DNA of 64,000 bases from an uncultured Candidatus Saccharibacteria bacterium (GTDB lineage: Bacteria > Patescibacteriota > Minisyncoccia > Phycocordibacterales > JABMNX01), in assembly GCA_964575755.1 (NCBI GenBank), contig CAZNRH010000003.1, positions 2,303 through 66,302 of the forward strand. The letters are read 5' to 3'. The translations under genes were made by a program, and so were the position numbers. The notes beneath the pieces are model-generated. The model was given only the letters and a program-made list of their open reading frames with translations. It had not been told where the DNA came from and made no database searches. Shown piece by piece: positions 2,684-50,816 of the stretch. How positions within the stretch are numbered: the first letter of the stretch is position 1; each line of letters opens with the position of its first letter.

Positions 2684-3895
2684 ATGCGGTTTATATACAA
2701 AATAAAAAATAAAGACGGAGAGATAATAGAAAGCACTGCAACTGCTCGTGATAAGTTTGAATTGTACGATCAAATTAGAAAAGAAGGCTCGGAAGTAATT
2801 GAAGTGCGCGAACATGGCAAGAACAAATTCTCAATGGATAGGTTTAATGAGATTTTCGGCACAATTAAAGAGCATGAAAAAGTCATCTTAACTCGTAATC
2901 TAGGTGCAATGATAGGTGCAGGACTCTCACTGACAAGAGCTATTACGGTACTCGAGCGTCAAACTAAAAACCAAAAATTAAAAATGGTTCTCGCTGGAAT
3001 TAACAGTGATATAAAAAAGGGTGGCAATTTCCACACTGCATTAAAAAAGTTCCCCAAAGTATTTACACAACTTTTTGTATCCATGGTTCGCGCTGGTGAA
3101 GAGAGCGGTAAGTTATCGGGAGCACTTGATCTCATAGGCGCACAGTTAGAGCGCTCATACACGCTTAAAAAGAAAATAAAAGGAGCGATGATGTACCCGA
3201 GTATTATAATGGTTGCGATGATAATAATTGCCGTGTTGATGCTTATCTTTGTGGTACCAACTTTAACTCAAACATTTGGTGAGCTTGGTGCAGATTTACC
3301 TAAAAGTACGCAAACTATAATCATGGCAAGTGATTTCTTTATACAGCACACGATACTTGCAATAACAATACCAATCGCATTTGTCACTTTTATAATGTAT
3401 GTATTAAAGACAACAAGAGGACGAAGAGCATTTCATTTTATACTGTTGCATACTCCAATAATTGGTGGATTAGTAAAAGAGATTCAGTCAGCACGTACAG
3501 CCAGGACCCTAGCGTCACTCCTCTCGTCTGGAGTTGAGATAGTTACATCTATTTCTATTACTTCAGAGGTGATGCAAAACTCGTATTATAAAGATGTGCT
3601 CTCTCAAGCGCAAAATGACGTGCAAGAAGGCTCGCCTCTGTCGAGAGCATTTACAGAGAATGAACATCTCTATCCAATACTTGTGGGCGAGATGATTTCA
3701 GTTGGAGAGGAGACAGGTAAACTGCCAGATATGCTTCTGCGTGTTGCTGAGTTTTATGAATCAGAGGTTGAGCAAAAAACGAAAGACATGTCTACTATTA
3801 TTGAGCCGTTTCTGATGATTATTATAGGGGCGTTTGTTGGATTCTTTGCTTTGTCTATGATTTCTCCAATATATTCACTTTCAGAAAGTATTTAG
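2684..3895 (+). CDS. pilC: Type IV pilus inner-membrane platform protein of the PilC/GspF family
   Basis: About 400 aa with two GspF-like repeats and three transmembrane segments. It sits immediately downstream of pilB. Confidence 0.85.
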   Translation: MRFIYKIKNKDGEIIESTATARDKFELYDQIRKEGSEVIEVREHGKNKFSMDRFNEIFGTIKEHEKVILTRNLGAMIGAGLSLTRAITVLERQTKNQKLKMVLAGINSDIKKGGNFHTALKKFPKVFTQLFVSMVRAGEESGKLSGALDLIGAQLERSYTLKKKIKGAMMYPSIIMVAMIIIAVLMLIFVVPTLTQTFGELGADLPKSTQTIIMASDFFIQHTILAITIPIAFVTFIMYVLKTTRGRRAFHFILLHTPIIGGLVKEIQSARTARTLASLLSSGVEIVTSISITSEVMQNSYYKDVLSQAQNDVQEGSPLSRAFTENEHLYPILVGEMISVGEETGKLPDMLLRVAEFYESEVEQKTKDMSTIIEPFLMIIIGAFVGFFALSMISPIYSLSESI

Positions 3896-4035: not shown

Positions 4036-5364
4036 ATGTCACACATTCAAAACAAACAAAAAGGGACGACATTACTGGATGTTGTTTTTGGCACAGCATT
4101 ACTTCTGATTGTGTTTGTTGGGCTGTATGGAGTATTTCAGCTTACTCTCGAATTAGTGCAGAGTTCTAAATCTAAAACAGGTGCACTTACTCTTGCTAGT
4201 GAACGCATGGAGTTTATTCGTAGTCTCAATTATGATGACGTCGGTACGGTTGGCGGTATCCCGCAAGGAGTGCTCACTGCGGAAGAAAACAATACATTGA
4301 ATGGAATTCCATATACTAAAAAGACGTTTGTTCAATATGTCGACGCTGTAGAAGACGGAGTTGGTGGCTCTGATTCAAATGGAATAACAACAGACTATAA
4401 ACTCGTAAAAGTTACTATAGAATGGCTATTTCGAGGGGACGCACGTTCATTTTCTCTTGTAACAAATGTTACACCTCAAGGTATAGAATCGGTTGTTGGT
4501 GGCGGCACACTGCGCATTAATGTGCTTGATTCTTATGGTTCACCGGTGCCAAGCGCTCAAGTAAATCTTATAAATAACGCACTTAATCCATCTGTTTCTG
4601 TTTCGACATTTTCAAATATAAGTGGAGTTGTGGAGTTTCCTGGAGCCCCTTCGTCAAGTAGTTATGAGATTTCCATAAGTAAATCAGGGTTAAATAGCGC
4701 ACAGACATACTCTGTTGGAGGTCTAAACGTGAACCCAAATCCAGGACACTTAACAGTCGTAGAGGCACAGACAACATCTTCAACTTTTTACATAGACACT
4801 ACTGGCTCAGCAACAGTGCGCACTTTTGAAGCAGGTACAACAACACCACTTCAAAGTATTGACCTATCAATTGCTGGCAATAAAACGATAGGAACAGATG
4901 GAATAGATGATCCTATATATAAGTATAGCTCAGACATTAATACAGGCTCTTTAGGAAGCATTTTGCTAGAGGATCTTGAGTGGGATAATTACACAATCAC
5001 CATAGATAGTGGCGCAACAGGATACGAAATAGCACAGACGTGCGAACCTCAACCATTTGCACTTGCGCCATCAGAAAATAAGGTTGTAGATATGCATCTT
5101 ACTGACAGCTCCACGCATTATATTATTGTGGATGTTACCGATAGTATCGGTAACGATCTTGGTGGAGCAAATGTACGTTTGTATAATGGAGGATATAACA
5201 CTACGTTTTCAACTGATGACTGTGGACTGACTTCATTTAGTAATTCTTCTTCATGGGGTTCGTATTCGATAGATGTATCGCTTTCTGGATATACACCACA
5301 AACAGTGAATAGTGTTGACGCAAGTAGAATATCAAACTTGAGTATCGTGCTAAACAGTATCTAA
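4036..5364 (+). CDS. Large pseudopilin-like protein with an N-terminal hydrophobic helix and Ser/Thr-rich beta-domains
   Basis: The N-terminus reads KG-TTLLD-VVFGTALLLIVFVGL, a class-III signal-like motif with Asp at +5 instead of Glu. Long Thr/Ser/Gly-rich repeats follow. Confidence 0.5.
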   Translation: MSHIQNKQKGTTLLDVVFGTALLLIVFVGLYGVFQLTLELVQSSKSKTGALTLASERMEFIRSLNYDDVGTVGGIPQGVLTAEENNTLNGIPYTKKTFVQYVDAVEDGVGGSDSNGITTDYKLVKVTIEWLFRGDARSFSLVTNVTPQGIESVVGGGTLRINVLDSYGSPVPSAQVNLINNALNPSVSVSTFSNISGVVEFPGAPSSSSYEISISKSGLNSAQTYSVGGLNVNPNPGHLTVVEAQTTSSTFYIDTTGSATVRTFEAGTTTPLQSIDLSIAGNKTIGTDGIDDPIYKYSSDINTGSLGSILLEDLEWDNYTITIDSGATGYEIAQTCEPQPFALAPSENKVVDMHLTDSSTHYIIVDVTDSIGNDLGGANVRLYNGGYNTTFSTDDCGLTSFSNSSSWGSYSIDVSLSGYTPQTVNSVDASRISNLSIVLNSI

Positions 5365-5365
5365 A

Positions 5366-5983
5366 ATGAAACAATTAGTAACTAATAATTATAAACTGAG
5401 GACTAAATATGGGTTTACTCTTATAGAGACGCTCGTGGTCATCACCATCACCATCACCATTATTGGTGCACTCGTTTCATCAATTAGCTTTTTTTATAAA
5501 TCTAATACAAATGCACTTGAGCAATCTTTTGCTATTAACAGTGCTCGTATTGGAATAGAAAGGATAGTTAAAGATATTCGGGAAGCGTCTTTTTCTGATG
5601 AGGGAGCATATCCAGTTATTGCCATGGCTACATCATCGTTTAGTTTTTATAGTGATATAGACAGTGATATCTTTGTTGAAAAGGTAAGATATTTTATTGA
5701 TGGCACTAATTTAAATAAAGGGGTTATAAACTCTTCTGGAGATCCACTTATATATAATAGTAATAATGAAGTTGTTTCTCTTGTCTCAGACAATGTTCGA
5801 AATAATGTAGAGCTGATAGACCTCTTTGTGTTTTTTGATGAATCAGGTGTGGTGATGACAGACATGTCAGATGCGACAGCATTAAGGTTCGTGACAGTGA
5901 AAGTTTCCGTTGACGTTAATCTAGCACGTTTACCAGAGAGTTTTGTACTTAACTCAAGTGCAACACTACGTAATGTAAGATAG
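5366..5983 (+). CDS. Type IV prepilin with a long (16 aa) leader
   Basis: Canonical prepilin cleavage and N-methylation motif KYG-FTLIETLVV followed by a hydrophobic helix. The TM helix contains an in-frame (ATCACC)x3 repeat. Confidence 0.8.
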   Translation: MKQLVTNNYKLRTKYGFTLIETLVVITITITIIGALVSSISFFYKSNTNALEQSFAINSARIGIERIVKDIREASFSDEGAYPVIAMATSSFSFYSDIDSDIFVEKVRYFIDGTNLNKGVINSSGDPLIYNSNNEVVSLVSDNVRNNVELIDLFVFFDESGVVMTDMSDATALRFVTVKVSVDVNLARLPESFVLNSSATLRNVR

Positions 5984-6034
5984 GTATCATTTTTCAGAAA
6001 AAATGAAAACAAAAATGAAAACAAAAGAATTATG

Positions 6035-6183
6035 CTCCCTGTTTGCCCAAGCTTTGCTTGGATACAAACAGCAGTGCAGAGCCTCCCTGTTTGCCCAAGC
6101 TTTGCTTGGATACAAACAGCAGTGCAGAGCCTCCCTGTTTGCCCAAGAGCGAAGCGATTGGTTGGCAAACAGCAGTGCAGTGA
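6035..6183 (+). repeat. Tandem array of about 48-nt hairpin-forming repeats. There are two perfect copies plus a third divergent copy, preceded by a 2x12-nt AAATGAAAACAA repeat.
   Basis: The unit CTCCCTGTTTGCCCAAGCTTTGCTTGGATACAAACAGCAGTGCAGAGC occurs at 6035-6082 and 6083-6130. Each unit holds the nested inverted repeats CTGTTTG/CAAACAG and CCAAGC/GCTTGG. Confidence 0.9.
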
Positions 6184-6251
6184 GGTCTTCAGACCGAGTC
6201 GTGAATAAGGAATTAGGAATTAAAAAATATAAAAACAGAGGATACGTAACC

Positions 6252-7619
6252 ATGCTGGTTCTTGTTTTTGCTGGCGTCTTTTTTACAATAGTGTCGGCGC
6301 TTTCAGGTTTTGTTTTTTTACAAAATAAAGTGCAGATTGCAAAAGAAAATAGAGAAAAAGCTTTTCAGATAGCTGAAGCAGGGCTAGATTATTACAAATG
6401 GTTCTTGGCACATTTTCCTAACGACTTAAAAGACGGGACAGGGACGTCTGGTCCGTATGTGCATTCTTACTCAGACCCAGAAGGTGGTGTGGTGGGGAAT
6501 TTCTCTCTTGATATTACTGGTAATACACAGTGTGGAATAGTTACCTCAATAAACATAACCTCGACAGGGGTATCCGATAACGACACCACTCTAGAGAGAG
6601 AGCTATTCGCGAAATATTCCAGACCATCAGTAGCAGAGTACTCTTTCATCCTAAATACAAATGATTGGAAGAAAGACCAGACTATCCTTGGTAAGTATCA
6701 CTCGAACAATGGAGTTCGCATGGACGCAGATAATAAATCGTTAGTGAGTAGCTCGGTAGCAAGTTGGACATGTACATCATCTCGCGGATGTGACCCTGAC
6801 TCAACCGAGGACGGCATCTTTGGAATTGGTGACAGTGCTCTATGGCAGTTTCCTGTACCTCAGATTGACTTTAATGGTATTACTGCTGATTTATCTTCAA
6901 TGAAGAATTTGGCACAAAATAGTGGTGGGATTTATCTCGGTGATTCAGGTGCAGAGGGATATCATATTTATCTACAAAGCGATGGAACGTTTGATGTATA
7001 TAGAGTTGATACTGTTGGAGATGGTTATTGGGCATATAGCTCACAGTGGACGTGGGAGATAGAAAACAATAAAGTTCTTTCGGAGACATTTCTTCAAACA
7101 TACACACCACCAGCAGATTGTAGTTTAGTTTTTGTGGAGGATATGTTGTGGTTGGAGGGTACAGTGAAAGGTAAACTAACAATTGTGTCAGCAGACTTAG
7201 TTAATTCAAATATTGAAACAGATATATATTTAGTAAACAATATAGAATACTCAACTTTAGTTGGTACAGATGGGTTAACAGTAATTGCGGAAGAGGATAT
7301 ATTATTATCTCCTGTAGTTCCAGACGATATGTCCATTCGAGGTATTTTTATAGCTCAAACAGGTCATTTTGGAAGAAATTACTACCACCCTGACAATGGA
7401 TATAGTGTAAGTGAGTCGTATCAGAATTCTTTTACAATAAATGGCTCAATTATTTCAAATGGACGTTCGTCAACTAGGTGGGATTGCCCAGATTATTGTT
7501 CAGGGTTTAATACGCGTAATAACTCATATGATCAGACACAGGCAAATAATCCTCCACCCTTAACTCCGTATACTAGTGATGATTTTAGGTTTGTTCAGTG
7601 GAGAGAAGAAACTTTATAG
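6252..7619 (+). CDS. Membrane-anchored pilus-associated protein (minor-pilin or PilX-like). The ORF track extends it to 6003 through the repeat array, which is unlikely to be coding.
   Basis: An ATG at 6252 with a purine-rich stretch upstream, followed by the N-terminal TM helix MLVLVFAGVFFTIVSALSGFV and a large Cys-containing extracellular domain. Confidence 0.45.
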   Translation: MLVLVFAGVFFTIVSALSGFVFLQNKVQIAKENREKAFQIAEAGLDYYKWFLAHFPNDLKDGTGTSGPYVHSYSDPEGGVVGNFSLDITGNTQCGIVTSINITSTGVSDNDTTLERELFAKYSRPSVAEYSFILNTNDWKKDQTILGKYHSNNGVRMDADNKSLVSSSVASWTCTSSRGCDPDSTEDGIFGIGDSALWQFPVPQIDFNGITADLSSMKNLAQNSGGIYLGDSGAEGYHIYLQSDGTFDVYRVDTVGDGYWAYSSQWTWEIENNKVLSETFLQTYTPPADCSLVFVEDMLWLEGTVKGKLTIVSADLVNSNIETDIYLVNNIEYSTLVGTDGLTVIAEEDILLSPVVPDDMSIRGIFIAQTGHFGRNYYHPDNGYSVSESYQNSFTINGSIISNGRSSTRWDCPDYCSGFNTRNNSYDQTQANNPPPLTPYTSDDFRFVQWREETL

Positions 7620-7640: not shown

Positions 7641-7763
7641 GTATGAATCCCGAACGAAATCGCGGACACAAACATAATATATAATAAATAAGTCGATAAT
7701 TAACAAAAGATTTAATCTAGTGACAAGGATTGTTTAAGTCCGTGTCCTATTTTGTACGGGATG
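7641..7763 (+). promoter_or_regulatory. Structured 5' leader element, copy 1, upstream of tpiA. Long-range helix ATCCCG-A-ACGAAAT..GGACAC / GTGTCC..ATTTTGT-A-CGGGAT encloses an AT-rich loop of about 60 nt and engages the start codon.
   Basis: A near-identical copy lies upstream of pgk, with 3 mismatches over about 123 nt. The ATG is embedded in the 3' strand of the helix. Confidence 0.6.
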
Positions 7764-8525
7764 AAAAAGATAATCATAGCCAACTGGAAGATGAATCCTG
7801 AAAGTGCCACAAAGGCAAAGGAACTCTTTATTGGAGTGAAGCAGGTAGCAAGTAAGCTTTCAAACGTAAAGACTGTTATAGCTACTCCGTTTGTATATTT
7901 ATCAGAGATTAGCAAATTATATCGTGGACATAGAATCGAGTTTGCAGCACAAGATGTATTTTGGGAGAAAAGAGGCTCATTTACTGGAGAGGTAAGCAGT
8001 GCGATGCTTAAAGACAGTGGGGCGACGCATGTCATAGTTGGTCATTCAGAGCGTCGTCTACTTGGCGAAGCAGATGTAGAGGTAAATCAAAAAGTTCTCG
8101 CTTCTACTCAAGCAGGTTTGACTGTTATACTTTGTATTGGCGAATCAGATCGCGATCATAGAGACGGCACACATCTTTCTTTTTTAACCTCACAGTTAGA
8201 ATCAGCACTTAAGGGTATATCTAAAAATAGACTTTCAAAAATTATAATTGCATATGAACCAATTTGGGCAATAGGTAAAAGTGAAGCTGATGCCATGAAG
8301 GGAGATGAGCTTCACGAGACAGTACTTTTTATTAGGAAAGTATTAACAGGTATCTTTGGAAAGAATCTTGCATTCAAAGTTCCTATTTTATACGGCGGGT
8401 CAGCAGGAAAGAGTAATACAGAAGTGTTACTTACCGAAGGTATGGTGGATGGGTTATTGGTAGGGCATGCAAGTCTGAAAATAGCTGAGTTTAGTGATAT
8501 GTTGAAGATAGCGCAAAAAATTTAG
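7761..8525 (+). CDS. tpiA: Triosephosphate isomerase
   Basis: IIANWKMN N-terminus, VGHSERR catalytic motif and the YEPIWAIGTG-like region. The start is taken as the ATG at 7761, which matches the leader/start arrangement of pgk. Confidence 0.9.
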   Translation: MKKIIIANWKMNPESATKAKELFIGVKQVASKLSNVKTVIATPFVYLSEISKLYRGHRIEFAAQDVFWEKRGSFTGEVSSAMLKDSGATHVIVGHSERRLLGEADVEVNQKVLASTQAGLTVILCIGESDRDHRDGTHLSFLTSQLESALKGISKNRLSKIIIAYEPIWAIGKSEADAMKGDELHETVLFIRKVLTGIFGKNLAFKVPILYGGSAGKSNTEVLLTEGMVDGLLVGHASLKIAEFSDMLKIAQKI

Positions 8526-8534
8526 TAAAAAATA

Positions 8535-8657
8535 GTATGAATCCCGAACGAAATCGTGGACACAAACATAATATATGATAAATAAGTCGATAATTAACAA
8601 AAGATTTAATCTAGTGACAAGGATTGTTTAAGTCCGTGTCCTATTCTGTACGGGATG
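8535..8657 (+). promoter_or_regulatory. Structured 5' leader element, copy 2, upstream of pgk
   Basis: About 97% identical to 7641-7763. The helix again ends in gggATG. Confidence 0.6.
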
Positions 8658-9755
8658 AAAAGTATTAAAGATGCAGGAGACGTAAAAGGAAAGAGAGTAC
8701 TTGTTCGAATTGATATTGATGACTCTGGAGTGAGTGCACTCCCCACTAATGCGCTTAAACCAACACTTTCTTATCTTAAAATGGCAGGTGCACGCGTCAT
8801 CCTTTTAGGGCATGTAGGACGTGACGGCAGTGTGTCTTCACGTAAGATTTTTGAAATACTAAAGAAAGAAATAGAGATTAGTTTTATTCCAGACATCGTT
8901 GGAGAAGTAGCCAGAGCAAGCATTAATGAAATGAAAGATGGGGAAGTCGTCTTGTTAGAAAATGTACGTGGCGACACAAGAGAAATGGAAAATGACGAAA
9001 CTTTTTCAAAAGAACTCGCAAGCCTAGCTGACATATATGTAAATGATGCCTTTGCAGTTTCACACAGAGAGCATGCATCACTTACTGGTATAACAAAACA
9101 TTTACCCAGTTATGCAGGACTTCGTTTACTAGAAGAAATAGAGGAGCTCTCTAAAGCCATTAACCCAAAGTCTCCATCCATTTTTATTATCAGTGGAGCA
9201 AAGATAAAGACTAAATTGCCTCTAATAGAAAAATTTATAGAAGTATATGACTATGTATTTGTAGGAGGAGTTCTTGCAAATAACTTCTTTGAAGCTAAAG
9301 GGTTTGAGATTGGCACATCAGTTGTGTCAGATGAGAATATTGATATATCACACCTACTTAATAATGAAAAAGTTCTAATACCAACTGACGTTGTTGTAGA
9401 AGTTGATGGAAAGTCATTAATAAAAAAAGCAGACGGGGTATTAAAAGAAGAAAAAATAGTAGATGCCGGTCCAGAGACTGTCTTAATGCTTAAAGAAAAA
9501 ATTAAAGACATGAACAGTGTTGTATGGAATGGTCCGCTTGGAGAGTATGAGCGTGGTTTTGATACAGCCACCAAAGACTTAGCGCTTGGTATTGCAGAAA
9601 GCCACGCCTATTCAATCGCAGGTGGTGGAGACACTCTTAACGCAATCGCAGATCTCAATATAGAGGAGAAGTTCTCATTTGTCTCAACTGGCGGAGGTGC
9701 AATGCTTGCGTTTTTACTACATGGAACATTGTCTGCAATTGAAGCCTTAAAATAG
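8655..9755 (+). CDS. pgk: Phosphoglycerate kinase (short form)
   Basis: The C-terminal GGGDTLNAI...STGGGAMLAFL signature and an N-terminal substrate-binding region. Confidence 0.85.
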   Translation: MKSIKDAGDVKGKRVLVRIDIDDSGVSALPTNALKPTLSYLKMAGARVILLGHVGRDGSVSSRKIFEILKKEIEISFIPDIVGEVARASINEMKDGEVVLLENVRGDTREMENDETFSKELASLADIYVNDAFAVSHREHASLTGITKHLPSYAGLRLLEEIEELSKAINPKSPSIFIISGAKIKTKLPLIEKFIEVYDYVFVGGVLANNFFEAKGFEIGTSVVSDENIDISHLLNNEKVLIPTDVVVEVDGKSLIKKADGVLKEEKIVDAGPETVLMLKEKIKDMNSVVWNGPLGEYERGFDTATKDLALGIAESHAYSIAGGGDTLNAIADLNIEEKFSFVSTGGGAMLAFLLHGTLSAIEALK

Positions 9756-12213: not shown

Positions 12214-12265
12214 AATAATTATCCTCCACATAAACACTTACCACAATAGCGCATCGACAACATGA

Positions 12266-12293
12266 CGAATAGTTCGGTTAACCGAACTATTCG
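12266..12293. promoter_or_regulatory. Perfect 28-bp palindrome CGAATAGTTCGGTTAACCGAACTATTCG, a putative operator, upstream of the yerC-like gene
   Basis: A second copy overlaps the stop codon of the same gene at 12713-12738. Confidence 0.55.
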
Positions 12294-12308: not shown

Positions 12309-12719
12309 ATGACTTATGTGTCAAAAGGACCTCTTAAAAGTGATATAAAGAAACGCTTAGATAAACAATTTGTTAATACTATTGTATCGCTACGTACCAC
12401 TTCTGGTGGTAAGAACTTTATTTCAGAACTTTTAACAGAATCAGAACAAATAATGCTTGCAAAGCGTTTGATGATGATCTTTATGATTGCAGAAGGCGTG
12501 TCGCAATATAAAATAAAATATTTATTACAAGTCAGCTCTTCTACTGTCTCGCATATAGCGTCAAGGCTTGATTCAGGGGCATATAAACATATAAAGAAAG
12601 ATTGTAGAAGTAAAAGAAATCGTCAGACTTTTTGGGATGAGTTAGAGATTATAGTTAGGCTTGGCATGCCTTCTATGGGCAAGAGACGTTGGGATTGGCT
12701 TGATGGATTATACGAATAG
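12309..12719 (+). CDS. TrpR-like YerC/YecD-family DNA-binding protein
   Basis: The helix-turn-helix region LAKRLMMIFMIAEGVSQYKIKYLLQVSSSTVSHIASRL resembles the YerC/YecD Trp-repressor fold. Confidence 0.55.
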   Translation: MTYVSKGPLKSDIKKRLDKQFVNTIVSLRTTSGGKNFISELLTESEQIMLAKRLMMIFMIAEGVSQYKIKYLLQVSSSTVSHIASRLDSGAYKHIKKDCRSKRNRQTFWDELEIIVRLGMPSMGKRRWDWLDGLYE

Positions 12720-12738
12720 TTCGGTTAACCGAACTATT
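12713..12738. promoter_or_regulatory. Second copy of the 26/28-bp palindrome, overlapping the yerC-like stop codon and lying upstream of rnhA
   Basis: CGAATAGTTCGGTTAACCGAACTATT. Confidence 0.55.
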
Positions 12739-22719: not shown

Positions 22720-22760
22720 GCAAAAGACATTATCGACGCAAGGAACTAGAGTTTCTATTG
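22720..22760 (+). repeat. Displaced duplicate of the last 10 codons of fusA ([10 protein letters not shown]), carrying only synonymous substitutions
   Basis: Compare 22604-22643 with 22720-22760. Seven codons differ and all encode the same residues. An 85-bp insert separates the two copies. Confidence 0.8.
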
Positions 22761-22772
22761 TAAAATATACAT

Positions 22773-22806
22773 AAATAAATGCCCCAGGTACCTGGGGCAT
22801 TTATTT
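22773..22806. terminator. Perfect palindromic terminator AAATAAATGCCCCAGGTACCTGGGGCATTTATTT (family A)
   Basis: 16-bp stem between fusA and tuf. Related copies occur at 33491, 40024 and 50589. Confidence 0.75.
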
Positions 22807-23016
22807 ATGTATATTTTACGCCAGAATACTTGACTTATACATTCATTTCTTGCTATTATAGCGTCATCGCAATGGGCGCCTTTTTGTATGGGGATTCTTT
22901 TCTCTTGTATATTTAGATGTCTGTAGCTTATTATCAATAAGTATTTTTAAGAAGTAAATCACTTGTTCTCGCGCGTTTACTTTTCAAAAATACTAAATAT
23001 TTTAAATAAAATTATT

Positions 23017-33453: not shown

Positions 33454-33490
33454 AAAATAAGTCTATATAGACTAGTAAACAACCATTTCA

Positions 33491-33541
33491 AGCCATTTTA
33501 AATGCCCCAGGTGGTTGGGGCATTTAAAATGGCTTGTTTTG
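33491..33541. terminator. Terminator of family A: AGCCATTTTAAATGCCCCA-GGTGGT-TGGGGCATTTAAAATGGCT followed by TGTTTTG
   Basis: 19-bp perfect stem. Confidence 0.85.
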
Positions 33542-43566: not shown

Positions 43567-44700
43567 CTACCCCTGTATTTCAAGGTCTTCTCTATAATCT
43601 ACCTCAAATATCTTCCACATAGAAAGGAAGAATCCAGCGATGATTGGACCTATAATAAATCCAGTTATTCCAAACAAAGTAAGCCCACCAAGCGTGGAAA
43701 TGAGAACAATAGCGTCAGGAATCTTAGCATCACGACCAACTAGTATTGGACGTAATATGTTGTCTATCAAGCTTATAATAATAAAGCCTCCAGCCAGCAC
43801 AAGAACTCCTTGCCATACCGCGCCTGTGAGCAAAAGTACAACTCCAGCAGGAAACCAAATAATAGTTGGACCAATGGCAGGTATAATTGAAAACATCATC
43901 ATAACGACAGTCCAAAGCAGGACTCCTTCTATTCCAGCAATCCAAAACAACACCCCGCCAATGGATCCTTGCAGTACAGCTATCACAAGAGTGCCTTTAA
44001 ATATTGACCGGATGATAATCTCAAAGTTTTTAAATAGACCTTGTTCTCGTTCATCGCCAAGCGGAAGAATGTGGGAAATCGTACGTCCTATCGACGGACC
44101 ATCACGAAGTAAGAAAAATAAAATATAAATCATCAAGAAAAAACTAATAAGTACGGAAAATGTTGCCTGTCCAAATACAACAGCCTGCCTAGCGAACCAG
44201 CCACTTGTGGATTGAACTAGGGAAGTAAGTTTTTCCTTAACAGTATCCTGCTGTATCCCATAACGCTCAAAGTAGCTAAGGGCTATAACAGTCTTATTTA
44301 CTAGGTTAGTTTGTGAAGATTCAATAGATTCGTTTGATATGCGGTTGTAGACTTGCAGAGATTCTTGAACTACGAGCCCCCCAACAGTCCAGAGAGGTAT
44401 AAATAAGACAACGATAATAGTAAGCAGTGAAAGAAGAGAAGAGAGTGTTTTATTTTTAAAAACAGTTAACCACTTCTTTTGTACAGGGTTAAATACAATA
44501 GCTAGTATAACAGCCCAGAAAATAGGCATAATAAAATCTTGGATAAGCCAAACGAATACTATCGTGGCAAAAGATAAAAGCCCAAAGAAAAGTACATTTT
44601 GTACTGTAAGGAATTTAGCTAAATGTGAGTGTTCCATTAGAATGTATTGTATCACGAAGCTTAAAAATATTAAAAAAAATAAAAAACGCCCTGCATACAT
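43567..44700 (-). CDS. AI-2E family transporter / UPF0118 permease
   Basis: Eight TM segments on a PerM-like protein. Confidence 0.7.
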   Translation of the reverse strand: MYAGRFLFFLIFLSFVIQYILMEHSHLAKFLTVQNVLFFGLLSFATIVFVWLIQDFIMPIFWAVILAIVFNPVQKKWLTVFKNKTLSSLLSLLTIIVVLFIPLWTVGGLVVQESLQVYNRISNESIESSQTNLVNKTVIALSYFERYGIQQDTVKEKLTSLVQSTSGWFARQAVVFGQATFSVLISFFLMIYILFFLLRDGPSIGRTISHILPLGDEREQGLFKNFEIIIRSIFKGTLVIAVLQGSIGGVLFWIAGIEGVLLWTVVMMMFSIIPAIGPTIIWFPAGVVLLLTGAVWQGVLVLAGGFIIISLIDNILRPILVGRDAKIPDAIVLISTLGGLTLFGITGFIIGPIIAGFFLSMWKIFEVDYREDLEIQG

Positions 44701-44933
44701 GTGTAGGACGTTTTCCTATTTTGTAAAGGAGGGATATAGACACTTTAGATTAGGTGTTTAGATTATAGAAATGTTTACGTCAAATTAGTTTGCTTAAAAA
44801 CAGAAACAGCTTACAAAAGTGAACCTTTACAGGTTGCTTTTGCAGGCTGATGCGTTCAAGTAAAAAACACATGAATGATTACTAAAAAGACGATCAAAAA
44901 AGCACCAATCCGTTGAAAGACTCAGCTTTACAT

Positions 44934-50460: not shown

Positions 50461-50816
50461 ATAAATAGTGTCAGTTTTTTGTAAAAAAGTTTCATTAAGT
50501 TTAAGAATACAGCTCTCTGTGGAAGTTACGAAGAAATAGGGTTAAGTATCCACTTTTGATTTTATAGATGGCTTGAATAAGCTAAAATAAATGCCCCAGG
50601 TGGGTGGGGTGAGAGGCGAATACATGGAGCTTCGCAAGAGGTTGTCGATATTCTGACGGAGGAAGGATATAGTACAACCTGAACAGTTCCTGTAAGGAAT
50701 CGGCGCAGGTTTCTAATCTCCTGCCTCGCTAAGCACCTCCTGTCCTAGTTCAGCACTCTTTCGTGCTTTTGCACACGTGCTATAAAATAAAAGAATGGTG
50801 GGGAAAAAATCAAATG

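What the first reader, a model, noticed from the sequence alone, without database searches (positions are those of the whole stretch)
6001..6183. Tandem array of 48-nt hairpin repeats between the prepilin gene and the next pilus gene
Two perfect 48-nt copies (6035-6082, 6083-6130) and a third rearranged copy (6131-6183) sit in the spacer between the major pilin gene and the following pilin-like gene. Each unit contains the nested inverted repeats CTGTTTG...CAAACAG and CCAAGC-TTT-GCTTGG. The third copy keeps the outer stem CTGTTTGCC/GGCAAACAG but swaps the inner hairpin. Perfect tandem copies in an AT-rich genome suggest recent expansion or contraction. The position between a highly expressed pilin and lower-stoichiometry downstream genes fits a role as an RNA processing or attenuation module, or as a protein-binding array. 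No U-tracts follow the hairpins, so they are not classic terminators. The ORF track's 538-aa protein starting at 6003 would translate these repeats, which I consider unlikely.
Basis: seen in the sequence. Interest (0 to 1): 0.6.

Follow-up and report, generated by a model that had tools for sequence, protein, structure and literature searches.

The report
Mobile hairpin repeat between pilus genes
The tandem hairpins are three copies of a small, apparently undescribed palindromic repeat that is scattered through many ultra-small (CPR/Patescibacteria) bacterial genomes and landed here on the start codon of a pilus gene, so they look like selfish DNA rather than a purpose-built pilus regulator.

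Summary
In detail: 6035-6147 is a perfect 48-nt x 2.4 tandem array, and a third, different unit ends at 6178. The array is not translated. About 470-aa homologues fix the downstream gene's start at GTG 6201, so the 538-aa ORF from 6003 is spurious.

The array is not a pilus-specific module. Relatives with 70-78% identical proteins have only 2-68 nt at this gene junction. The window's "rearranged" third unit is in fact the canonical form of a ~48-nt hairpin family. I found that family in 20 other CPR loci, from 5 species-representative genomes and 13 metagenome contigs.

The hairpin has a basal stem CTGTTTGC/GCAAACAG, a 3' bulge, CCAA/TTGG, a tandem G.A and a variable apex. Its flanks GCTCC and CAGTGC are conserved. 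Seven of its 14 base pairs show compensatory changes.

Elsewhere the element interrupts a YafQ/RelE toxin gene. It also forms a 19-aa in-frame insert in an ABC-F ATPase, nests inside another copy, and forms a 53-nt tandem array between mreB and murA. There is no match in Rfam, phages, plasmids or the literature.

Best reading: a new REP/MITE/RPE-like mobile palindromic repeat, inserted and locally amplified here. Any effect on pilus-operon expression is a by-product. The mobilisation mechanism is unknown.

The parts
5366..5983 (+). Upstream prepilin-like gene (205 aa, KYG|FTLIETL N-terminus). It ends three codons earlier than in relatives.
   Evidence: ORF list. Pfam N_methyl E=6e-4, below the curated cutoff. 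Junction comparison with relatives.
5984..6031 (+). A-rich spacer containing a 12-nt x 2.3 tandem repeat (AAAAATGAAAAC, 5999-6026). It is 84% identical to the sequence upstream of the element in the unrelated locus L015. A looser A-rich spacer exists in relative L006.
6032..6034 (+). Probable remnant of the downstream gene's original ATG. Window AAGAATTATG compares with AGGAATTATG|AAT in relative L004. It is now separated from the gene by the insertion.
   Evidence: Junction alignment. This is an inference.
6034..6077 (+). Hairpin unit 1, a derived variant. Basal stem CTGTTTG/CAAACAG and inner stem CCAAGC-TTT-GCTTGG. It lacks the family's tandem G.A. The 48-nt period runs 6035-6082 and includes the linker AGAG.
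   Evidence: Family model hit 46.8 bits, E=3e-10. TRF. Fold -17.4 kcal/mol.
6082..6125 (+). Hairpin unit 2, identical to unit 1 over the 48-nt period 6083-6130.
   Evidence: Family model hit 44.6 bits. 100% identity.
6130..6178 (+). Hairpin unit 3, the canonical family form: CCTCC CTGTTTGC CCAA GA GC-GAA-GC GA TTGG (TTG) GCAAACAG CAGTGC.
   Evidence: Family model hit 75.1 bits, E=4e-18. 88-96% identical to units in L015, L014, L030, L018 and L029.
6179..6200 (+). 3' tail module AGTGAGG-TC-TTCA-GACC-GAGTC(GT), with a small hairpin GGTC/GACC at 6184-6195. The same tail follows the unit in L015, L014 and L030. Its last bases create the new GTG start.
   Evidence: Flank comparison. blastn of L015 and L014 extends to window 6205-6208.
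6201..7619 (+). Downstream PilX/GspK-like minor-pilin gene (472 aa) with its true start at GTG 6201: (M)NKELGIKKYKNRGYVTMLVLVF.
   Evidence: 1541 homologues, the closest 466-479 aa with N-termini such as MNQELRIIKNRNGGYVTM. PF14341 PilX_N is precomputed for homologue P0058.
6032..6208 (+). 58-codon ORF running from the old ATG through all three units. It ends at a TAA 3 nt past the GTG start. It is a possible bridging ORF for termination-reinitiation, with no evidence that it is translated.
   Evidence: ORF list. Translation. The units lack stop codons in all six frames. The function is an inference.

Best explanation
The array is three head-to-tail copies of a ~48-nt palindromic repeat that belongs to a family dispersed across CPR/Patescibacteria genomes. 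One composite copy (canonical hairpin plus a 3' tail) inserted in this lineage at the start codon of the PilX-like gene. Before that, the gene abutted the upstream prepilin-like gene. A variant unit was then duplicated in tandem on the 5' side. This gives two perfect 48-nt copies and one older canonical copy.

The element behaves as selfish or mobile DNA of the REP/MITE/RPE type. It inserts into intergenic DNA and into genes, sometimes with short flanking duplications. It also amplifies in tandem and can nest inside its own apex. How it is mobilised is unknown.

Its consequences at this locus are by-products. The two cistrons are now 217 nt apart. The start codon became GTG and the old Shine-Dalgarno/ATG was displaced. 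The transcript would carry three stable hairpins, which could protect upstream mRNA or impede ribosomes. A 58-codon ORF from the old ATG ends on the new start and might preserve translational coupling.

Shown: the repeat, the family, its structure and covariation, the absence from relatives, and the insertions in genes. Inferred: mobility as a mechanism, the order of events, and every effect on expression.
For: The array is real and present in independent assemblies.

The true gene start is at 6201. The same gene junction in relatives L004, L009, L011 and L006 is 10, 2, 7 and 68 nt against 217 nt here, and none of them has a family-model hit.

The pattern CTGTTTGCCCAAG-N5-25-CAAACAGCAG has 23 fixed bases. 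It hits 7 loci in 5 GTDB species genomes and 13 metagenome contigs. Positions the pattern did not force are also conserved: GCTCC, AG...CGATTGG and T(G/C)C.

The hairpin is supported by covariation. 96.4% of cells are paired, against 25-52% when partners are slid. Seven of 14 pairs show changes on both sides, and 0 of 500 shuffles reach the observed values.

Insertion behaviour is documented in five places:
- L014: excising the element restores a full-length YafQ/RelE toxin (PF15738, 34 bits, profile 2-84 of 88), with GAAAAA on both sides.
- L013: a 19-aa in-frame insert in an ABC-F ATPase is absent from 118 of 120 CPR homologues. It is flanked by TCGGACGGT and TCGGGCAGT.
- L025: one unit is nested in the apex of another.
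- L024/L017: three identical 53-nt units plus one variant lie between mreB and murA.
- L012: the unit lies between 69-nt direct repeats that include the 3' end of tRNA-Ile.

The window's unit 3 scores as canonical and units 1-2 as derived. There is no Rfam family.
Against: No transposase or other mobilising gene was identified, and I could not scan whole genomes for one. Copy number looks low: one locus in this 64-kb window even with filters off, and 1-3 exact-pattern loci per genome. That is unlike classic REPs.

The flanking duplications vary in length (6, 9, ~44 and 69 nt) and are unclear at several loci, so a fixed target-site duplication is not shown.

The near-identity of the element across genomes of 32-51% GC is partly forced by the exact-match search. 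It could instead reflect a conserved host function, such as a protein-binding RNA.

In co-directional contexts and inside genes the element is always in the sense orientation (8 of 8, about 5 independent). This hints at an RNA-level constraint that a purely selfish DNA model does not predict.

The window and L015 share the A-rich leader as well, and both insertions lie upstream of PilX_N-like genes. This link is unexplained.
Confidence: 0.68

Rival explanations
1. A dedicated cis-regulatory RNA module of the pilus operon. The transcribed hairpins would act as a processing site, 3'-end stabiliser or attenuator that sets the ratio of the upstream pilin to the downstream pilus proteins.
For: The hairpins are stable (-17 kcal/mol each; spacer z = -3.7). 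They lie in the sense orientation inside an operon. A second, unrelated locus (L015) has the same composite between a prepilin gene and a PilX_N-like gene.
Against: The module is absent from all four orthologous loci of relatives, where the genes abut. The same element sits next to murA, ppa, cdaA, pfkB, fusA, smc and tRNA-Ile, and inside ABC-F and toxin genes. Nothing shows that the upstream gene is the major pilin. There is no terminator signature.
Confidence: 0.1
2. A portable structured RNA or single-stranded DNA motif that binds a conserved CPR protein through the tandem G.A internal loop and the conserved GCTCC and CAGTGC flanks. Arrays would act as multi-site binding platforms or sponges. 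Dispersal would reflect function rather than selfishness.
For: Unpaired positions are conserved in sequence while the stems covary. The element is in the sense orientation in all co-directional and in-gene contexts. It is conserved across genomes of very different GC content.
Against: Units 1-2 of the window have lost the G.A motif yet were the ones amplified. Insertion into and disruption of a toxin gene, and insertion into an ABC-F coding region, are hard to reconcile with a selected binding site. G-U versus A-C mismatch counts give no strand preference (6 versus 6). No partner protein is known.
Confidence: 0.12
3. The repeats are translated, either as a 66-aa N-terminal extension of the PilX-like protein (ORF 6003-7619) or as a small 58-aa peptide (6032-6208).
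For: Both ORFs are open. The ORF from 6003 is in frame with the gene here, and the equivalent ORF is in frame in L015. A long prepilin-type leader could be cleaved off. The units have no stop codon in any of the six frames.
Against: About 1500 homologues lack any such extension, and the closest start with MN(Q/K)EL, aligning to GTG 6201. Differences between the window and L015 in this frame are non-synonymous (L/F, V/E). There is no Shine-Dalgarno sequence before ATG 6003 or 6015. A six-frame peptide search found no protein family beyond the spurious ORFs themselves. The in-frame coincidence is a single event, because the two loci share the same sequence.
Confidence: 0.05
4. A site for structure-specific recombination, such as an attC-like or Xer-type folded hairpin, rather than a transposable repeat.
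For: The architecture resembles a folded attC: two short stems, a one-sided bulge, an internal loop and a terminal structure of variable length. Long direct repeats flank the element at a tRNA 3' end (L012) and in L020/L026.
Against: The core sequences do not fit the attC R'/R'' consensus (GTTRRRY/RYYYAAC), judged by eye from my own knowledge of attC. The neighbouring genes are housekeeping genes, not cassettes. Units occur in spacer-less tandem arrays. No integrase is seen in the loci held.
Confidence: 0.05

Closest known systems
REP / BIME / REPIN elements of proteobacteria (mobilised by RAYT, a Y1 HUH transposase)
   Same: A short (~35-50 nt) imperfect palindrome with a conserved single-stranded 5' motif. 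It is dispersed, mostly intergenic, often clustered, and transcribed as part of operons, where REPs stabilise upstream mRNA.
   Different: Copy number here is low. Clusters are head-to-tail, not inverted pairs. Copies also lie inside coding sequences. The 5' motif is GCTCC, not GTAG. The same sequence is shared by very different genomes, whereas REPs are species-specific. No RAYT has been identified.
Rickettsia palindromic elements (RPE)
   Same: A palindromic repeat that can insert in frame into protein-coding genes without destroying them (L013 ABC-F). It has no stop codons in the reading frames.
   Different: RPEs are 100-150 bp and confined to Rickettsia. This element is ~48 nt, also forms tandem arrays, and can disrupt a gene (L014).
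Mycobacterial interspersed repetitive units (MIRU)
   Same: Tandem repeats of 46-100 bp located between genes of an operon, in the direction of transcription. A small ORF runs through the repeats and its end overlaps the start of the next gene (6032-6208 against GTG 6201).
   Different: MIRUs are not hairpins and are not found inside genes. Copy-number variation between strains is not documented here.
Bacterial MITEs (for example Correia/CREE of Neisseria, ERIC)
   Same: Non-coding and dispersed, with terminal inverted repeats (here the two arms of the hairpin). There are putative short target duplications of 6 and 9 nt. They can alter expression of neighbouring genes.
   Different: At 48 nt it would be at or below the size of the smallest MITEs. 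No parent IS with matching ends is known. The duplications are inconsistent in length.
Type III toxin-antitoxin repeat arrays (ToxI-like)
   Same: A spacer-less tandem array of ~36-48-nt units just upstream of a gene.
   Different: The downstream gene is a PilX-like pilin, not a ToxN/AbiQ endoribonuclease. The units occur singly and in unrelated contexts.

Membership tests
REP/REPIN (RAYT-associated) | Short imperfect palindrome, 20-40 nt, able to fold as a hairpin | tested here: met
   14-bp interrupted hairpin, 96% paired, 7 covarying pairs.
REP/REPIN (RAYT-associated) | Strictly extragenic location | tested here: not met
   Copies lie inside an ABC-F gene and a YafQ/RelE gene.
REP/REPIN (RAYT-associated) | Tens to hundreds of copies per genome | tested here: inconclusive
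   One locus in 64 kb with filters off. 1-3 exact-pattern loci per GTDB genome. Whole genomes were not scanned with the model.
REP/REPIN (RAYT-associated) | A RAYT (Y1 transposase) gene in the same genome, flanked by REPs | not tested
MITE | Terminal inverted repeats and no coding capacity | tested here: met
   The arms GCTCC-CTGTTTGCCCAA and TTGG-GCAAACAG-CAGTGC are inverted repeats. The unit is 48 nt.
MITE | Target-site duplication of fixed length | tested here: inconclusive
   GAAAAA (6 nt) in L014, TCGGACGGT/TCGGGCAGT (9 nt, 7 of 9 matching) in L013, about 44 nt in L020/L026 and 69 nt in L012. None is clear in the window or L015.
MITE | A parent insertion sequence with the same ends | not tested
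   Only an IS3-family transposase lies near copies in L030.
Rickettsia palindromic element-like (in-frame genic repeat) | In-frame insertion into a conserved protein that keeps the ORF open | tested here: met
   A 19-aa insert in L013 ABC-F between GGSDG and AKISEGV, absent in 118 of 120 homologues and in PDB ABC-F proteins.
MIRU-like intercistronic tandem repeat | Tandem repeats between co-transcribed genes, with a small ORF whose ends overlap the flanking genes | tested here: inconclusive
   The array lies between two same-strand pilin-like genes. The ORF 6032-6208 ends 3 nt past GTG 6201. Its start does not overlap the upstream stop codon, and translation is untested.
Intrinsic terminator | GC-rich hairpin followed by a U-tract | tested here: not met
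   0 terminator-like sites in 5300-6700.
Any Rfam 15 RNA family | Covariance-model match | tested here: not met
   No hit on the element at E<=10 in the window, none at gathering score, and none at E<=1 in ten other loci carrying canonical units.
CRISPR array | Repeats separated by unique spacers | tested here: not met
   The units abut with 4-6-nt linkers.
Type III TA (ToxI-ToxN-like) | Repeat array followed by a ToxN/AbiQ-family toxin gene | tested here: not met
   The downstream gene is PilX-like with about 1500 homologues that lack arrays. Other arrays precede murA or ppa.

The most novel reading that the evidence does not exclude
The element is an active, cross-lineage mobile hairpin of CPR bacteria, moved by a mechanism not yet described for such small repeats. 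Candidates are single-stranded-DNA hairpin or RNA-mediated insertion. This would explain the sense-strand bias, the variable-length flanking duplications, the nesting into its own apex and the 5'-side growth of arrays. It may be tolerated, or even exploited, because it has no stop codon in any of the six frames and can carry a start codon and bridging ORF into operons.
Probability: 0.2. Interest if true: 0.75.

Novelty: new member of a known kind. Interest (0 to 1): 0.5.

Why it matters
CPR/Patescibacteria genomes are tiny and streamlined and are usually treated as poor in repeats, so a shared, insertion-prone 48-nt hairpin would be a useful marker of recent DNA exchange or of a common mobilising enzyme in this uncultured group. 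It causes gene-calling errors (the spurious 538-aa and 190-aa ORFs) and assembly breaks (the Logan contigs end inside it). It can remodel genes: a 19-aa insert in an ABC-F translation factor, an interrupted toxin gene, and a replaced start codon here. For this window it means the tandem hairpins should not be read as a designed pilus regulator. Any regulatory effect would be a by-product of the insertion.

Tried and rejected
- Rfam at gathering score on the whole window, and at E<=10 on 5900-6350: only noise, none on the array.
- Rfam at E<=1 on ten other loci with canonical units: nothing on the element.
- IMG/VR viral contigs with the family pattern: 0 hits.
- INPHARED phages and PLSDB plasmids by blastn: no match.
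- Literature search by concept and by the literal sequence: only irrelevant primer hits.
- A six-frame peptide query, meant to find proteins carrying the element in frame: only 2 hits passed the E<=10 cap, one of them the spurious L015 ORF. This was uninformative and wasted a search.
- Exact-protein look-ups of the downstream gene with alternative starts, meant to find contigs with a different copy number: nothing on record. P0001 returned only the same NCBI contig.
- Strand assignment from G-U versus A-C cells: 6 versus 6, no signal.
- Sigma-70 promoter scan of the spacer: none found.
- K-turn, bulge-helix-bulge, group II intron domain V and attC were considered by eye, from my own knowledge, and rejected. 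The bulge positions or consensus bases do not fit.

Full report
**1. The observation**

Tandem Repeats Finder reports a 48-nt period, 2.4 copies, 100% matches and score 226 at 6035-6147. The repeat finder gives 6035-6082 and 6083-6130 as identical. The 33-nt hairpin core occurs twice and nowhere else in the window, with 0 expected in 100 shuffles. The 3' segment CAAACAGCAGTGCAG occurs three times against 0.08 expected.

A third unit (6131-6178) shares the first 17 and the last 15 nt with units 1-2 but has a different apex. GC is 0.52-0.53 over the array and 0.28-0.47 around it. Each unit folds into a hairpin of about -17 kcal/mol. No U-tract terminator or sigma-70-like promoter is predicted in the spacer.

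The same sequence is present in a second NCBI contig (L001). Two independent Logan assemblies (SRR6439370, SRR6439372) end exactly at the last 31-mer that is unique before the repeat. That is what a de Bruijn assembler does at a real repeat.

**2. Gene context**

The window comes from a CPR/Patescibacteria genome. Homologues of the downstream gene are named Candidatus Paceibacterota, Kaiserbacteria or Patescibacteria group. The local genes, all on the + strand, are:
- a T2SSF/PilC gene (2684-3895);
- a 442-aa pilin-like protein with CarboxypepD_reg domains (4036-5364);
- a 205-aa prepilin-like protein with KYG|FTLIE (5366-5983);
- the ORF that the track draws as 538 aa from 6003.

A search with the downstream protein returned 1541 homologues. 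The closest are 466-479 aa, and their N-termini (MNQELRIIKNRNGGYVTMLVLVF and similar) align with (M)NKELGIKKYKNRGYVTMLVLVF read from GTG 6201. Only the protein called from this same genome carries the extension.

The real gene is therefore 6201-7619 and the spacer is 5984-6200 (217 nt). Nothing shows that the 205-aa gene is the major pilin.

**3. The spacer is a lineage-specific insertion**

In four orthologous loci (70-78% protein identity, same gene order pilC - big pilin - prepilin - pilX-like - tpiA - pgk) the junction is much shorter. It is 10 nt in L004, 2 nt in L009, 7 nt in L011 and 68 nt of A-rich sequence in L006. None of them contains a match to the family model.

In L004 the junction reads TAA GTTAGGAATT ATG AAT CAG GAA TTA. 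The window has ...AAGAATT ATG directly before the first unit (ATG at 6032-6034), and ...GAGTC GTG AAT AAG GAA TTA after the last. The simplest reading is an inference: the element landed on or next to the original start codon. The old Shine-Dalgarno/ATG now sits 169 nt upstream, and the element's last bases create the new GTG.

**4. The unit belongs to a dispersed family**

I scanned the public collections for CTGTTTGCCCAAG-N5-25-CAAACAGCAG, which has 23 fixed bases. It hit 7 loci in 5 GTDB species-representative genomes, labelled Saccharibacteria, Campbellbacteria or 'bacterium' MAGs. It also hit 13 metagenome contigs and no viral contig.

Every hit has the form of the window's third unit: (G)CTCC CTGTTTGC CCAA GA GC-loop-GC GA TTGG (1-4-nt bulge) GCAAACAG CAG T(G/C)C. 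Positions that the search did not force are conserved, namely GCTCC, AG...CGATTGG and T(G/C)C.

A covariance model built from 15 units scores the window's unit 3 at 75 bits, and units 1-2 at 45-47 bits. The 'rearranged' copy is therefore the canonical one. The two perfect copies are a derived variant in which the tandem G.A and the apex are replaced by CCAAGC-TTT-GCTTGG.

The model also recovered diverged copies: L030 1181-1229, L025 6957-7004 and L024 5133-5177. On the 22 distinct sequences, 96.4% of cells form pairs, against 25-52% when partners are slid. Seven of 14 pairs show changes on both sides, for example CTGTTTGC/GCAAACAG to CGTTTTAC/GTAAAACG and to CAATTTGT/ACAAATTG. None of 500 shuffles reaches the observed values.

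This alignment was fitted to the model, which favours the structure. The compensatory variants are nevertheless visible in the raw sequences. With filters off, the model finds no other copy in the 64-kb window.

**5. Behaviour of the family**

(a) L014. The element with its 3' tail interrupts a small gene. Removing it gives an 86-aa protein that matches the YafQ/RelE toxin profile end to end (PF15738, 34 bits, cutoff 30). GAAAAA flanks the insert on both sides.

(b) L013. The element lies in frame in the second ABC domain of an ABC-F ATPase. Against 120 CPR homologues of 56-75% identity, the L013 protein has a 19-aa insert (APCLPKSKAIGCKQQYSGS) between GGSDG and AKISEGV. 118 of the 120 have nothing there. 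The 57-nt insert is the 48-nt unit plus TCGGGCAGT, which matches the left flank TCGGACGGT in 7 of 9 positions.

(c) L025. A variant unit is nested in the apex of another unit.

(d) L024, L017, L021 and L027. Three identical 53-nt units plus a fourth variant fill the divergent gap between mreB and murA. As in the window, the 3'-most unit is the odd one.

(e) L012. The unit lies 54 nt after tRNA-Ile, between two 69-nt direct repeats that begin in the T-arm of the tRNA.

(f) Other copies lie upstream of ppa, cdaA, pfkB and an RHH-PemK operon, and downstream of fusA and smc.

In all eight co-directional or in-gene contexts the element is in the sense orientation. Perhaps five of these are independent, so this is only suggestive. 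Counts of G-U against A-C cells (6 versus 6) do not identify a functional strand. Most units have no stop codon in any of the six frames.

**6. What is shared with L015**

L015/L023 carry one canonical unit between a prepilin gene and a PilX_N-like gene. The unit is preceded by an A-rich stretch (ATGAAAACAAAAAT...) and followed by TGCAGAGAGGTCTTCAGACCGAGTTGTG. This 112-nt composite is 84-96% identical to window 5998-6205. The neighbouring proteins are unrelated apart from generic pilin N-termini.

The tail GAGTCGT also follows the unit in L014 and L030. The mobile unit at this locus is therefore probably the hairpin plus tail. Whether the A-rich leader travels with it, or was exchanged between pilin loci, is unresolved.

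**7. Interpretation**

The best-supported account is a small palindromic repeat of the REP/MITE/RPE kind that inserted here and was then amplified in tandem. The two perfect copies indicate recent duplication.

Expression effects are inferred, not shown:
- loss of the tight stop/start coupling seen in relatives;
- an ATG-to-GTG change;
- three stable hairpins in the transcript;
- a 58-codon ORF (6032-6208) from the old ATG that ends at a TAA 3 nt after GTG 6201 and could allow termination-reinitiation.

Reasons for caution are that no mobilising enzyme was found, copy number is low, and the flanking duplications are irregular. The sense bias and the conserved unpaired bases leave room for an RNA- or protein-binding function.

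**8. Comparison with known systems**

There is no Rfam 15 family. There is no phage or plasmid match and no literature hit by concept or by sequence string.

The element resembles REPs in size, hairpin and 5' motif, but it fails their extragenic rule and is not shown to be high-copy or RAYT-linked. It resembles RPEs in the in-frame genic insertion, but it is three times smaller. It resembles MIRUs in forming an intercistronic tandem array with an overlapping small ORF, but MIRUs are not hairpins. It resembles MITEs in having inverted-repeat ends and possible target duplications, but no parent IS is known.

It is not a CRISPR array, a terminator or a ToxI-type array. I file it as a new member of the known kind 'small non-autonomous palindromic repeats', first seen here in CPR bacteria.

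**9. Verdict**

The pilus-specific regulatory module is not supported. Interest is moderate (0.5): the finding is an ordinary kind of element, but apparently an undescribed family with unusual breadth and behaviour in a poorly known group.

Noticed in passing
window 7641-7767 and 8535-8661 (weak third copy 44700-44730); L006 6229-6380: A 127-nt direct repeat (98% identical) lies immediately upstream of tpiA and of pgk. Its ends pair over a long range: TCCCGAACGAAAT..GGACAC with GTGTCC..ATTTTGTACGGGA. A homologue upstream of pgk in relative L006 shows covarying pairs (CCCGTTAAAGATAGG / TATCTTTAACGGG). The 3' arm ends at the start codon, so it could mask the ribosome-binding site. Other relatives have only 8-33 nt at these junctions. 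There is no Rfam hit at E<=1. It could be a cis-regulatory RNA of glycolytic genes or a second mobile structured element.
   Followed up: partly
window 22753-22826, 33489-33536, 50576-50609: A family of long perfect or near-perfect palindromes around AAATGCCCCAGGTnnnTGGGGCATTT. They look like shared bidirectional terminator-type hairpins.
   Followed up: no
window 12265-12291 and 12712-12738: Two identical copies of ACGAATAGTTCGGTTAACCGAACTATT, containing a perfect palindrome. They bracket a small gene (about 12310-12716) whose product looks like a TrpR/YerC-type HTH protein by eye. They may be its operator sites.
   Followed up: partly
window 5999-6026: A 12-nt tandem repeat AAAAATGAAAAC x 2.3 sits in the A-rich spacer just before the hairpin array. 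It creates the two in-frame ATGs (6003, 6015) that mislead gene callers.
   Followed up: partly
L019 ~520-960, L020 ~1110-1560, L026 ~1960-2420: In three different contigs the hairpin unit is embedded in a larger conserved region. This region has long-range complementary segments (ggcgaccgttcatttgagag / ctctcaaatgaacggtcgcc), a direct repeat of about 44 nt on both sides of the unit, and GTCATTCC...GGAATCCAGTG hairpins that resemble Neisseria dRS3 repeats by eye. There was no Rfam hit for L019 or L020.
   Followed up: no
L012 718-1010: The hairpin unit sits between two 69-nt direct repeats that start in the T-arm of tRNA-Ile (718-790). This looks like an att-type duplication at a tRNA 3' end, but with only about 56 nt between the repeats.
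   Followed up: partly
L024 527-778 (also L017, L021, L027): Four hairpin units fill almost the whole divergent intergenic region between mreB and murA, leaving about 20 nt on each side. The promoters of these essential genes must lie within or beyond the array.
   Followed up: no
L018 5784-6074: A 96-codon ORF with a Cys-rich N-terminus (KKCSGCRAT-CLPKSKAIGCKQQC-PMG) reads through the element in the same frame as the ABC-F insert. It has no Pfam match. It is unclear whether it is a real gene.
   Followed up: partly
window 4036-5364: A 442-aa protein with a pilin-like N-terminus (KGTTLLDVVFG, Asp instead of Glu at +5) and CarboxypepD_reg/Ig-like domains. It is conserved next to pilC in all relatives. 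It may be a large tip or adhesin-type pilin of CPR pili.
   Followed up: no
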